From a virus (lineage: Duplodnaviria > Heunggongvirae > Uroviricota > Caudoviricetes), in IMG/VR virus record IMGVR_UViG_3300029184_000014, positions 1 to 14,988 of that record: a DNA stretch of 14,988 nt. One strand, written 5' to 3'. Numbering within the stretch: position 1 is the stretch's first letter; every line of letters begins with the position of its first letter. Shown here piece after piece: positions 9,001 through 12,000 of the stretch. A program made the position numbers.

Positions 9001-12000
9001 TTTCACATTGCCGAACGGTAAAAGATTTAAACAGTCTCTTGGAACAAAGGACAAAAGGCAGGCGACAGAGCTCCATGACAAGCTAAAGGCTGAAGCATGG
9101 CGGGTCAGCAAACTTGGTGAAATACCTGATATGACGTTTGAGGAAGCGTGTGTCAGGTGGCTCGAAGAGAAAGCACATAAGAAATCACTGGACGATGACA
9201 AAAGCCGGATCGGATTCTGGCTTCAACATTTCGCAGGGATGCAACTAAGAGACATCACTGAATCAAAAATTTATTCAGCGATGCAGAAAATGACAAACCG
9301 GCGTCATGAGGAAAACTGGAAACTCAGGGCAGAAGCATGCAGAAAAAAAGGGAAACCTGTTCCAGAATACACGCCAAAACCAGCGTCCGTTGCAACGAAG
9401 GCTACGCATCTTTCATTTATAAAGGTATAAAGGCCCTGCTAAGAGCCGCAGAGCGTGAATGGAAAATGCTGGATAAGGCACCAATTATTAAAGTGCCTCA
9501 ACCAAAGAATAAACGGATCCGCTGGCTGGAGCCCCATGAAGCACAAAGGCTGATTGATGAATGTCCGGAGCCATTAAAGTCTGTTGTTGAATTTGCACTG
9601 GCAACAGGCTTAAGACGCTCGAACATCATCAACCTTGAATGGCAACAAATAGATATGCAGCGCCGGGTGGCATGGATAAACCCGGAAGAGAGTAAATCAA
9701 ACCGCGCAATTGGCGTTGCGCTGAATGATACTGCATGTCGCGTATTGAAAAAACAAATCGGGAATCATCACCGTTGGGTATTTGTGTACAAGGAAAGCTG
9801 TACCAAACCAGACGGAACGAAAGCGCCAACAGTAAGGAAGATGCGGTATGACGCAAACACAGCCTGGAAAGCGGCGCTGAGACGGGCTGGTATTTATGAT
9901 TTCAGATTTCACGACTTGAGACACACCTGGGCAAGTTGGCTGGTTCAAGCCGGAGTCCCGTTGTCAGTGTTACAGGAAATGGGAGGTTGGGAGTCTATCG
10001 AAATGGTTCGTCGATATGCTCACCTTGCACCTAATCACCTTACCGAACACGCACGGCAAATAGACTCGATCCTGAACCCATCGGTCCCAAATTTGTCCCA
10101 GTCAAAAAATAAGGAAGGTACTAATGATGTGTAACTTATTGATTTAAATGGTGCGATAATAGGAGAAAAACACACATCATAAATGCATGATATTTAACCG
10201 AATTTACCTATTCCATTTTTACAGATACCCCCAAAAGTACCCCCAACAAATTTTCTATACCATGATTTGTGCAAAAAATTGACTCTCCTGTACTCCCCTA
10301 TTTTGTGCCCTATTGCCGATGCTACAACTAATGATATAAGTTATTGAAGCAACCTGAGTCCATTACGATAAAAATGATATAAGAAAAGAGTATAATAGTT
10401 CAACGTATTTACTATGATAAATGAAGTCGATGTGGCAGTGAAGCTCTGGAATATATTAATAATTTTAAGGGTTGTCATTAGATAACCCCAATTAAAATTG
10501 CTTACAACTGGAGTTATCTAACTTTCACTCACTGAATAGTCTCATTATCTTCAGGCTTAGTTATTTCATCTTCTAATTTATCCAACCACGTTATAGCACA
10601 TTGATTCAAATCGATGATCAGATTTTCCACATACACAATTATTGAATTAAATTTCCTAGGGTTAACACTACTTTTAAACTCCCCATGTCCCAAAGAATTT
10701 CTAAGGCCAACAACCTCACCTAGTTGCGATAAATCAAGTGATGAATAATCCAAACCTATAGCATCGAAATTCACCTTGACAACCATTTCATTCACATTGG
10801 AAAATGTCATAACTAATTCAGAAACATCGCAATCTGATAATGTGGATTTATTAAACCTGTCAATGTGTTGAATTACCTCACTTGTTAGTTTAAACGCCCC
10901 CTTCGTAACTTTCTTTTTTATTTGGGCGCCATTATGGACAATGCTTCGGTGTGAGTCAGCATCATAAATATTTTTTATCATATCTACATACTTGCTATAA
11001 AATGGTTCTCGTTGCAACCAAAGTGCTCGAATTTCTGCAGAGTATCTAAATGCCTCTCTATCTGAGAGTTTCAATGTATTTAAGCAAACTGACATTGTTT
11101 CAGTAAAAAAACCCTCCCAAGAAGAATAAATCATTGGGACCGATATTATTCTAAACATATCCTCCTTGTCTTTATCACCTGATCTCGACATAAACTCATT
11201 AATAGACTTTATGCTCTCAAGGAATCCAAGACTTTCATTTTTCGTCTTTTCCAACATCACCTTGAAATCATCGAAATCTGATATTCTCATTTTATCCAAA
11301 CACCTTCTTCCCAAGAGCGATTCTTTTCTCTAATTTGGCTTTAGTATTAGATCCAGAACCAGTACAAGCTCTTAATTCTTTGATCTCACCATCCATTAAA
11401 TAATCAAATCTTTTCGCCACCTCAGCAGGTGTTAAATTATCTACATTACTAAAAATACCAACAGCAACAACATCTAATAAATTAGTACTAAACGGGCCAC
11501 TTGGAGCACCATCCTTTCTAAATTTAAATGCTTTACCAGATAAACCAGCAATATTTATCAAATCAAAAGTTCTTTTTATTTTTAATTCAAAATTAATATC
11601 AATAACATTATGTTCTGCCGCGTAGAACATAAATTCATCCAAAAAGTCAGTTACACTATGGCTAAATTTATCCGCATAAGTCAAAGATGCCATAACTCGT
11701 AGCAAAGCTTCCTCAACACCTTGAGATTTTTGGCCATCTTCATTTATTCCAAGAGCTTGAACAATACCATCAATTTCGGCCATCTTACGTAAGCGATCTG
11801 CAAATTCATTCCCTGCTAATCTAGCCATGCAATTACGTATTTCCTGGTCACTCAAACGAACACCAGACCTATTCAGTCGTTTAAAAACATTATATTTAGT
11901 TTCAGGTTTTGTTTCTTGCTCCAAAATAACAACATTTACTCGCGCATTTTTTATAGTTCGGCTAACTTTGTCCGGCAATCCTTTTGCAGTCCATCCATTT

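What the first reader, a model, noticed from the sequence alone, without database searches (positions are those of the whole stretch)
9337..9440. Integrase inactivated by an exact 8-bp tandem duplication
The integrase reading frame breaks exactly at a perfect tandem duplication, tataaagg-tataaagg (9418-9433). Upstream (8963-9430) and downstream (to 10134) segments each encode good integrase sequence in frames that differ by the 8-bp insertion. This is a slipped-strand or microhomology duplication that would lock the prophage in place (a grounded or domesticated prophage), unless it is a sequencing or assembly artefact.
Basis: seen in the sequence. Interest (0 to 1): 0.5.

Follow-up and report, generated by a model that had tools for sequence, protein, structure and literature searches.

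The report
Prophage integrase broken by 8-bp duplication
A resident virus in a gut E. coli strain has lost its cut-and-paste enzyme to a real 8-base tandem duplication; this is an ordinary, recent gene-killing mutation, and a neighbouring mobile island had probably already cut the virus off from its exit site.

Summary
TATAAAGG is repeated in perfect tandem at 9418-9433. It splits a 387-codon SfV/SfI/P22-type, thrW-targeting integrase gene into a 155-codon 5' ORF (8963-9430) and a 3' part in the -1 frame (to 10134). Deleting one copy restores a 1164-nt ORF that is 2 nt from an intact E. coli allele.

It is not an assembly artefact. The duplication is present in every one of the five contigs I read (from five separate metagenome assemblies), which fall into two haplotypes. 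It is a private allele: all 1276 complete E. coli genomes that carry this stretch have one copy, and every full-length phage match is 8 nt shorter. The other 16 prophage genes in the window are intact, and 7.6 kb of the prophage differs from an intact-integrase relative at only 3 nt. The lesion is therefore recent decay, not a conserved or domesticated two-ORF design.

First, there is a second private change, D309Y, at a position that is acidic in 117 of 120 family representatives. Second, only 17 nt of the phage's 46-bp att core follow int. A thrW-integrating, satellite-like defence island follows that remnant. The prophage was therefore probably unable to excise even before int broke (inferred).

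The break sits on an A_AAG -1 shift-prone site, so leaky rescue is possible but unlikely. Interest is low.

The parts
8963..9430 (+). int 5' fragment (ORF A, 155 aa). It comprises residues 1-154 of the 387-aa integrase, then V and a stop. It holds the arm-binding N-domain and most of the core-binding domain.
   Evidence: Domain limits are by analogy with lambda Int (PMC2629481). The AF2 model of an intact homologue places the break in the middle of helix 143-162.
9418..9425 (+). First copy of the octamer TATAAAGG (the copy shared in register with homologues, or equivalently the second copy).
9426..9433 (+). Second copy of the octamer, the 8-nt insertion relative to all homologues. It shifts the frame and brings TAA (9428-9430) into frame.
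9421..9424 (+). A_AAG in the ORF A frame, a known low-level -1 shift-prone tetranucleotide in E. coli. A -1 slip here enters the ORF B frame and would give ...[14 protein letters not shown]...
   Evidence: Sequence; PMC5009743. No frameshifting was measured.
9430..10134 (+). int 3' part in the -1 frame (within mechanical ORF B, 9337-10134). It covers residues 154-387, including the full catalytic domain (Pfam PF00589, repaired residues 184-355) with the ATGLRR, HDLRH and RRYAH motifs. Gene callers call a 222-aa ORF from ATG 9466.
9895..9897 (+). TAT codon, D309Y, a second private change in int. It lies 5 residues before the HxxR motif.
   Evidence: E 108, D 9, T 2, V 1 among 120 representatives; never Y; no E. 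coli complete genome has it.
8736..9086 (+). xis-like excisionase gene (116 aa, HTH_17). It is intact and overlaps the int start.
10149..10165 (.). Remnant of the att core, TGGTG-CGATAATAGGAG. It is the first 18 nt of the 46-bp SfI/P22-type core (the 3' end of thrW, reverse strand) with one C missing. It is also the distal direct repeat of the neighbouring island. Homology to phages and to prophage-thrW junctions ends here.
1..8735 (.). Early region of the lambdoid prophage: P, O with ori iterons, YdaT/YdaS-like, cI-like repressor, kil, gam, bet, exo, DndB-like DGQHR, TraR, DUF4222. All of these genes are intact.
10166..14988 (-). Distal end of a thrW-integrating, satellite-like island. Cargo: HEPN-like nuclease (10529-11290), DUF262/GmrSD_N protein that is NsnA/PD-T4-2_A-like (11292-12404), and an N6/N4 DNA methyltransferase (12401-13627).

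Best explanation
The window holds the int-proximal end of a lambdoid prophage in a human-gut E. coli lineage. Its integrase is of the SfV/SfI/P22 type, which targets the tRNA gene thrW. It is a recent pseudogene. An 8-bp tandem duplication inside codons 152-154 shifts the frame and stops translation two codons later. That cut falls in the middle of the last helix of the core-binding domain. The arm-binding and core-binding half is separated from the catalytic half, so no heterobivalent Int can be made.

Shown: the duplication is real and heritable, it is private to this lineage, and it is the only indel in 10.1 kb of prophage.

Inferred: the allele is null, and the prophage cannot excise or re-integrate with its own Int.

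Also inferred (about 60-70%): the duplication is not the only lock and may not be the first. A thrW-integrating island with its own P4-type integrase sits between int and thrW. It leaves only 17 nt of the 46-bp core next to int. That remnant lacks the anticodon-loop end, where integrases with such long identity blocks normally cross over. On this reading the island integrated after the phage and severed its attachment site. Selection on int was then relaxed, and int picked up the duplication and D309Y.

The origin of the duplication is most simply a replication or repair error, but there is no flanking microhomology.
For: Duplication and frames. One copy in all relatives: 1276 of 1276 complete E. 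coli genomes with this stretch align over 74 nt instead of 82; full-length int matches in phage records span 1164 nt against 1172 in the window; there is no exact match in GTDB representative genomes or IMG/VR.

Real, not an artefact: the 155-aa ORF is indexed on 7 contigs. The four of them that I read, from three ENA assemblies and one Logan assembly, all carry the duplication. So does one further contig found by exact pattern, OAZY01000228.1. They form two haplotypes.

Recent: repaired int is 2 nt from IrN int. Window 1839-9425 differs from IrN at 3 nt, and all 16 other CDS are intact.

Family: Pfam PF00589 at 9e-48. 94 of 120 family representatives are single ORFs of 387 aa with no indel at the break.

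Break inside a conserved helix.

Second private change, D309Y.

Truncated att: the 46-bp core is from PMC3636060 and the SfI annotation. The island has its own integrase next to thrW in PD23, and its ~18-nt core is seen.

Defective recombinase and resected att sites are both recognised routes to 'grounded' prophages (PMC6379469).
Against: No reads were inspected, so a mixed population of one-copy and two-copy alleles cannot be excluded.

No functional test was done. The catalytic half could be translated on its own, because gene callers call a 222-aa ORF. A -1 slip at A_AAG would restore the frame.

The claim that att was severed first rests on the crossover lying at the anticodon-loop end of the 46-bp block. 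That is a rule recalled from Williams 2002, which I could not read. If this Int crosses over within the last 17 nt of thrW, the junction could be a usable site, and the duplication would be the sole lock.

E. coli ARS-C101 has the same int-repeat-island junction with an int gene annotated as intact. Severing therefore does not necessarily lead to decay.

The prophage's late genes and attL are outside the window. For this lineage, the island's own integrase and thrW itself were not seen either; they were seen only in the related genomes PD23 and MS8345.
Confidence: 0.85

Rival explanations
1. Sequencing or assembly artefact: the true sequence has one TATAAAGG and int is intact.
For: The window comes from metagenome-type assemblies, and no reads were inspected. 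The samples look as if they belong to one cohort (names BAEC15-1_SAMEA25799xx and run ERR525704), so they may not be fully independent biologically.
Against: The identical duplication is present in all five contigs I read, from different pipelines: three ENA assemblies including a k119 MEGAHIT-style contig, one Logan assembly, and OAZY01000228.1. They come from at least two samples and carry two haplotypes that differ at 13-17 other sites. From general knowledge, a clean 8-bp tandem insertion in non-repetitive sequence is not a typical short-read or de Bruijn-graph error.
Confidence: 0.02
2. The lesion and its consequence are the same, but the origin differs. The two octamers are the target-site duplication left by a transposable element that makes 8-bp duplications and was later removed exactly at its ends. 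Alternatively they come from fill-in of an 8-nt staggered break. Either way the origin is not replication slippage.
For: The duplicated unit has no flanking microhomology (t before, c after), which slippage models usually need. From general knowledge, 8 bp is the target duplication length of several IS families found in E. coli (IS26/IS6, IS66, ISL3, sometimes IS1).
Against: No E. coli complete genome has an insertion at this site. The single partial hit, O157:H7 TR01, has one octamer and an unrelated lesion 10 nt downstream. From general knowledge, exact end-to-end IS loss that keeps both target copies is rare in bacteria. No IS end remnants lie between the copies.
Confidence: 0.1
3. Leaky or reversible inactivation. 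Ribosomes slip -1 at A_AAG (9421-9424), two codons before the new stop. They would make a small amount of full-length Int with a GIK insertion. Alternatively, the tandem repeat collapses back to one copy at appreciable frequency. Either way, excision would be throttled rather than abolished.
For: The frame change needed is exactly -1, and A_AAG in the zero frame is a documented low-level -1 shift site in E. coli (PMC5009743). The predicted product is ...[14 protein letters not shown].... From general knowledge, perfect tandem repeats can be lost by slippage.
Against: There is no X_XXY_YYZ heptamer: the P-site codon AUA cannot re-pair at -1. No stimulatory structure stands out, since the fold z-score is -1.4 and the same downstream sequence is present in the wild type. 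The insertion would fall in the middle of a helix whose residues H149, L150, K154, R158, A160 and E161 are invariant. Any product would still carry D309Y. The arrangement is not conserved in any other genome. The adjacent att remnant is truncated anyway.
Confidence: 0.04
4. A functional two-piece integrase. ORF A (the DNA-binding half) and a separately translated ORF B (the catalytic half) associate non-covalently and still recombine.
For: The break lies close to the boundary between the core-binding and catalytic domains. Both halves are otherwise intact. Gene callers find a start for the catalytic half (ATG 9466), and AGGG lies 7 nt before ATG 9337.
Against: 94 of 120 family representatives are single 387-aa chains, and none of the aligned representatives is split at this point. 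The split is private to one lineage. ORF A loses half of a conserved helix, and neither candidate start for ORF B supplies it in native form: the 222-aa version starts only at residue 166, and the ATG 9337 version puts about 29 out-of-frame residues in front of it. There is no sign of selection for the split.
Confidence: 0.02

Closest known systems
Integrases of Shigella flexneri serotype-converting phages SfI, SfII, SfIV and SfV, and of E. coli phage phi458 (P22-type, thrW-integrating tyrosine recombinases)
   Same: Nucleotide identity is 97.4-98.5% over the whole gene. The repaired protein is 99% identical to SfI Int. An xis gene overlaps the int start, and the att core begins 14 nt after the stop codon.
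   Different: Those genes are single 1164-nt ORFs followed by the complete 46-bp core (PMC3636060). Here the gene has the 8-bp duplication and D309Y, and only 17 nt of the core remain. The surrounding prophage is a lambda/DLP12-like mosaic, not an Sf phage.
Prophage at thrW of E. coli strain IrN (NZ_CP187535.1) and six near-identical records
   Same: It is 99.3% identical over window 1-10165, with only 3 nt different over 1839-9425. It has the same gene order and the same int allele apart from 2 nt.
   Different: In IrN, int is intact and is followed directly by a complete tRNA-Thr gene and proA. There is no island between them.
'Grounded' or cryptic prophages of E. coli (DLP12, Rac, e14, Qin, CPZ-55), as reviewed in PMC6379469
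   Same: It shows the recognised routes to immobilisation, a defective recombinase and a resected att site.
   Different: Those are old, widely shared and heavily deleted. This one is private to one lineage, and every other gene in the window is intact. The late region was not seen.
Frameshift mutations compensated by low-level -1 slippage at A_AAG (examples in PMC5009743)
   Same: A frameshifting indel lies next to a zero-frame A_AAG, and the direction of slip needed is -1.
   Different: There is no evidence of compensation here, no stimulators, and the product would carry a 3-residue insertion in a conserved helix.

Membership tests
Tyrosine recombinase / phage integrase family, P22-SfV thrW subgroup | C-terminal catalytic domain (Pfam PF00589) with the conserved R...K...HxxR...W/H...Y residues | tested here: met
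   PF00589 scores 8.9e-48 on the repaired protein and 2.9e-47 on ORF B. [18 protein letters not shown] and RRYAH are encoded in ORF B, and these residues are invariant in 28 homologues. Assigning the catalytic roles rests on general knowledge.
Tyrosine recombinase / phage integrase family, P22-SfV thrW subgroup | One uninterrupted chain of about 387 aa linking the arm-binding, core-binding and catalytic domains | tested here: not met
   The gene is split at codon 154 by the 8-bp duplication. 94 of 120 family representatives are 387 aa, with no indel at this point. It is therefore a pseudogene of this family, not a working member.
Tyrosine recombinase / phage integrase family, P22-SfV thrW subgroup | Adjacent 46-bp att core identical to the 3' part of thrW | tested here: not met
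   Only 17 nt remain (10149-10165, one C missing), and then island sequence follows.
Grounded (immobilised) prophage | Defective recombinase and/or resected att site | tested here: met
   Frameshifted int and a truncated core next to int. The definition is taken from PMC6379469. Actual inability to excise was not tested.
Domesticated prophage or co-opted gene arrangement | The lesion or arrangement is conserved across diverged host lineages, indicating selection | tested here: not met
   0 of 1276 complete E. coli genomes with this stretch carry the duplication. It was found only in a few gut metagenome assemblies with near-identical sequence.
Programmed -1 ribosomal frameshift site | Slippery heptamer X_XXY_YYZ | tested here: not met
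   The zero-frame sequence is UUU_AUA_AAG_GUA_UAA. Only the tetramer A_AAG is present.
Programmed -1 ribosomal frameshift site | A stimulatory element (downstream structure or upstream SD-like sequence) and conservation of the two-frame layout in homologues | tested here: not met
   The fold of 9400-9500 has a z-score of -1.4, and 15 of 200 shuffles fold as well. The layout is absent from all homologues.
Phase-variable simple-sequence contingency locus | A repeat tract whose copy number varies among related strains | tested here: not met
   Only two states were seen: one copy in all reference genomes, and two copies in every one of the five contigs of this lineage that I read. Variation within a sample is not testable without reads.

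The most novel reading that the evidence does not exclude
The inactivation is leaky or conditional rather than final, in two layers. First, the frameshift lies on an A_AAG -1 shift site pointing the right way, and it is a perfect tandem repeat that can collapse. Int supply would then be throttled or switchable. Second, the prophage's attachment site is split by a satellite-like island that uses a more 3' crossover point in the same tRNA gene. The site would be rebuilt only when the island excises, which would make prophage mobility hierarchically dependent on its neighbour.
Probability: 0.04. Interest if true: 0.55.

Novelty: new member of a known kind. Interest (0 to 1): 0.17.

Why it matters
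On its own this is one more example of how prophages decay. It is a clean, datable first step: a private frameshift in int while every neighbouring gene is still intact. It is useful as a marker allele for tracking this E. coli lineage in gut metagenomes, and as a caution that 'integrase present' calls from domain hits can hide pseudogenes. The context is slightly more instructive. Two elements share one tRNA gene but use different crossover sublocations. As a result, the later arrival (the island) can sever the earlier one's attachment site. If confirmed, that asymmetry would be a general, sequence-predictable way for tandem arrays at tRNA genes to immobilise prophages.

Tried and rejected
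1. Assembly artefact. Rejected because the allele recurs in independent assemblies with two haplotypes.

2. IS footprint. I looked for any E. coli genome with an insertion at the octamer. The only partial hit, O157:H7 TR01, has one copy and a different lesion 10 nt downstream. This origin is unsupported but not excluded.

3. Conserved two-ORF design. Rejected.

4. Programmed frameshift. Only a tetramer is present, with no notable structure and no conservation. Kept as a low-probability reading.

5. Integration by homologous recombination with the int 3' remnant seen near yagU in PD23 and MS8345. Rejected because those remnants diverge from the window left of TAACTTATTG, whereas the window's int 3' end matches intact alleles right up to the repeat.

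6. Whether the ORF next to thrW in MS8345 is an int remnant. It is not.

7. Rfam scan of the window: no hits. tRNA scan: none in the window.

8. The structure model of the catalytic half had low confidence (pLDDT below 50), so I used only the N-terminal half and ran no fold search.

9. Williams 2002 (PMC100330), on crossover sublocations, is not held. That rule is therefore cited from memory.

10. I tried to reach thrW in this lineage's own contigs through a window protein. The look-up returned only isolate genomes.
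Full report
**1. The observation**

The sequence at 9418-9433 is tataaagg-tataaagg. Tandem Repeats Finder lists it as period 8, 2.0 copies, 100% matches.

The mechanical ORF list has 8963-9430 (155 aa) and 9337-10134 (265 aa) on the + strand, in frames one base apart. ORF A ends ...[14 protein letters not shown] reads ...[20 protein letters not shown]... and runs on to the stop at 10134.

Deleting 9426-9433 gives a single 1164-nt ORF of 387 codons.

A perfect 8-bp tandem is not rare by chance. It is expected 0.3 times per shuffled window and 0.024 times per int-sized stretch. The repeat alone proves little, and the comparison with homologues is the real test.

**2. What the gene is**

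The repaired protein has a full Pfam Phage_integrase domain at residues 184-355 (E = 9e-48).

At the DNA level the gene is 97.4-98.5% identical to int of phages phi458, SfII, SfI, SfIV and SfV, and about 78% identical to P22-like Salmonella phages. In every full-length match the subject spans 1164 nt against 1172 in the window.

The repaired protein is 99% identical to SfI Int and to the intact Int of E. coli IrN. The repaired gene differs from IrN int at 2 of 1164 nt.

Among 120 cluster representatives of this family, 94 are exactly 387 aa, and none has an indel around residues 148-162.

An xis-like gene (8736-9086, HTH_17) overlaps the int start, as in SfI.

**3. Is the duplication real, and how widespread is it?**

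An 82-nt probe across the site matched 1276 complete E. coli genomes. All full-length matches span 74 nt, which means one copy. The single partial match, O157:H7 TR01, also has one copy and carries an unrelated lesion 10 nt downstream.

An exact 34-nt pattern containing both copies found nothing in 185,579 GTDB representative genomes or in IMG/VR.

The exact 155-aa ORF A is indexed on 7 contigs of public assemblies. I read four of them:
- ENA ERZ28566151 (sample SAMEA2579932)
- ENA ERZ28564527 (sample SAMEA2579921)
- ENA ERZ27239365
- Logan ERR525704

All four carry the duplication. The exact pattern also hit contig OAZY01000228.1.

Two of the four contigs are 100% identical to the window. The other two differ at 17 and 13 positions, none of them in int.

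Different assemblers, at least two samples and two haplotypes rule out an assembly artefact. They also show that the allele is inherited. The sample and run names suggest a single infant-gut cohort. That is my reading of the names and was not verified.

**4. Anatomy of the break**

The frame breaks after K154. A structure model of an intact homologue (N-terminal half at pLDDT about 80-90) puts residues 143-162 in one helix, the last before the linker to the catalytic domain.

H149, L150, K154, R158, A160 and E161 are invariant.

By analogy with lambda Int (arm-binding about 1-60, core-binding about 75-175; PMC2629481):
- ORF A holds the arm-binding domain and a core-binding domain lacking half of its last helix.
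- The 3' part holds the whole catalytic domain.

Integrases of this kind must bridge arm and core sites with one chain (general knowledge). The allele should therefore be null for integration and excision. This is an inference and was not tested.

**5. A second private change**

The window has TAT (Y) at codon 309, five residues before the HDLRH motif. SfI and IrN have D there.

Among 120 representatives the position is E (108), D (9), T (2) or V (1), and never Y.

A 41-nt probe in which every 28-mer word includes the T found no match in 5,426 E. coli genomes. All four ORF A contigs share the change.

**6. How old is the lesion?**

Against the IrN prophage, the only indels in 10.1 kb are the octamer and one base in the att remnant.

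All 16 other annotated genes are open in the window. Positions 1839-9425 differ at 3 nt only, and the other 62 differences are confined to the P and O genes, a mosaic patch.

The lesion is therefore recent. There is no sign of long-term domestication.

**7.

In IrN and most relatives, int is followed 14 nt later by a complete tRNA-Thr gene (thrW) and then proA.

The attP core of SfI-type phages is 46 bp, ATTCGTAATGCGAAGGTCGTAGGTTCGACTCCTATTATCGGCACCA. It is identical to the 3' part of thrW and is shared with SfII, SfV, SfX and P22 (PMC3636060; annotated in SfI).

In the window, homology to phages and to prophage-thrW junctions stops at 10165. Only TGGTG-CGATAATAGGAG remains, which is 17 nt with one C missing. 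Unrelated sequence follows.

That sequence is 99.9% identical to the distal end of a thrW island in 13 E. coli genomes.

In strain PD23 the island runs from the same short repeat to thrW and carries the following:
- its own tyrosine integrase next to thrW
- an AlpA-like regulator, AntA, a D5-type primase, ProQ and PerC
- a cargo of a methyltransferase, a DUF262 protein and a HEPN-like nuclease

The island's identity with thrW covers only the last ~18 nt.

The same int-repeat-island junction, with the same missing C, occurs in E. coli ARS-C101. There it sits next to a different prophage whose int gene is annotated as intact. It also occurs next to other left neighbours in MS8345 and PD23.

The simplest history is that the phage integrated at thrW first. 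The island then integrated into the last ~18 nt of the regenerated thrW.

Elements with a roughly 46-nt identity block are expected to cross over at its far end, the anticodon loop. This is the sublocation rule of Williams 2002. The sublocations are summarised in PMC4383910, but I could not read the original paper.

If that holds here, the phage's int-side arm is now separated from its crossover point by the whole island. The prophage could not excise even with a working Int. The int lesions may then be a consequence of immobilisation rather than its cause.

I rate this part at about 60-70%. It fails if this Int cleaves within the last 17 nt of thrW.

**8. Origin of the duplication**

The repeat cannot be extended by a single base on either side, so there is no microhomology of the kind slippage models use. 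A replication or repair error remains the default explanation. A transposon footprint (8-bp target duplication) is a minority alternative with no positive support.

**9. Could it be leaky?**

The frame change needed to rejoin the two parts is -1. The zero-frame sequence is AUA_AAG_GUA_UAA. A_AAG is the minimal, 'relatively low level' -1 shift site in E. coli (PMC5009743).

A slip would give ...[11 protein letters not shown]....

Against this:
- There is no heptamer.
- The downstream fold is unremarkable (z = -1.4).
- The three extra residues would sit inside an invariant helix.
- D309Y and the truncated att would remain.
- The layout is not conserved anywhere.

Reversion by loss of one copy is possible in principle. 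I give the leaky or switchable reading about 4%.

**10. Comparison with what is known**

This is a pseudogene of the P22/SfV-type thrW integrase in a lambdoid prophage. It is a fresh example of prophage 'grounding' through a defective recombinase and probably also a resected att site. Both routes are already described (PMC6379469).

It is not a programmed frameshift, not a contingency locus and not a domesticated arrangement. The defining features of each were tested and not met (see the membership table).

**Verdict**

The finding is an ordinary, recent inactivating mutation in a context that suggests the prophage was already stranded.

Novelty: a new member of a known kind. Interest: 0.17.

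Noticed in passing
window 9895-9897: A private G-to-T change makes D309Y in int, five residues before the HxxR motif. The position is E or D in 117 of 120 family representatives. No complete E. coli genome has this allele.
   Followed up: yes
window 10149-10165; L015 about 6300-6320; L016 about 6030-6045; L002 about 11985-12002: The short thrW-derived repeat at the island's distal end lacks the same C in the window, ARS-C101 and MS8345, and lacks 3 nt in PD23. This holds even though the left neighbours differ (prophage int, vat island, int remnant). Whether the deletion travels with the island's attP or marks its crossover point is unexplained.
   Followed up: partly
window 10166-14988 and beyond (L003, L020-L024): A thrW island of about 17 kb has its own P4-type integrase, an AlpA-like regulator, AntA, a D5 primase, ProQ and PerC, so it looks like a phage satellite. 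Because it uses the last ~18 nt of thrW, integrating after a P22-type prophage would split that prophage's 46-bp att core. Excision of the island would rebuild the core.
   Followed up: partly
window 10529-13627 (- strand): A three-gene cargo sits at the island tip: a HEPN-like nuclease, a DUF262/GmrSD_N protein (PADLOC NsnA 1e-55, PD-T4-2_A 1e-41) and an N6/N4 DNA methyltransferase. It is probably an anti-phage system.
   Followed up: partly
L015 6800-8559 versus window 10529-13627: In E. coli ARS-C101 the same island backbone carries two different hypothetical genes at the same tip position. This suggests a cargo-exchange hotspot.
   Followed up: no
window 7002-8066 (+): A DndB-like DGQHR protein (PADLOC DndB 4e-37) is encoded in the prophage early-left operon between exo and the TraR-like gene. 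It is present in some relatives and replaced by Dam or other genes in others.
   Followed up: no
window 1285-1377: Four imperfect 23-bp repeats (TTTACCTGATTCAGGTAAAC...) lie inside the O replication gene. They look like lambda-type origin iterons.
   Followed up: no
window 14636-14911: Thirteen SNPs cluster in 276 bp between the two metagenome haplotypes (L003 and L004 versus the window), while the remaining ~14.7 kb has at most 4. This is probably a recombination patch in a 175-aa island gene.
   Followed up: no
L018 about 3050 (E. coli O157:H7 TR01): An independent lesion of the same int family: homology ends 10 nt after the (single) octamer, and the gene is annotated as frameshifted and incomplete, with an IS1203 nearby. 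It shows that this integrase decays repeatedly by different routes.
   Followed up: partly
window 13951-13979: A 12-bp unit, TTTTAAACAACC, is repeated 2.4 times in the intergenic region upstream of the methyltransferase operon. Its function is unknown.
   Followed up: no
L003 1-792 (left of the window): The prophage carries an SMR-type transporter gene and a 508-aa large serine recombinase (DLP12 emrE/ybcK-like) next to ren. This second recombinase in the prophage has no known role in excision.
   Followed up: no
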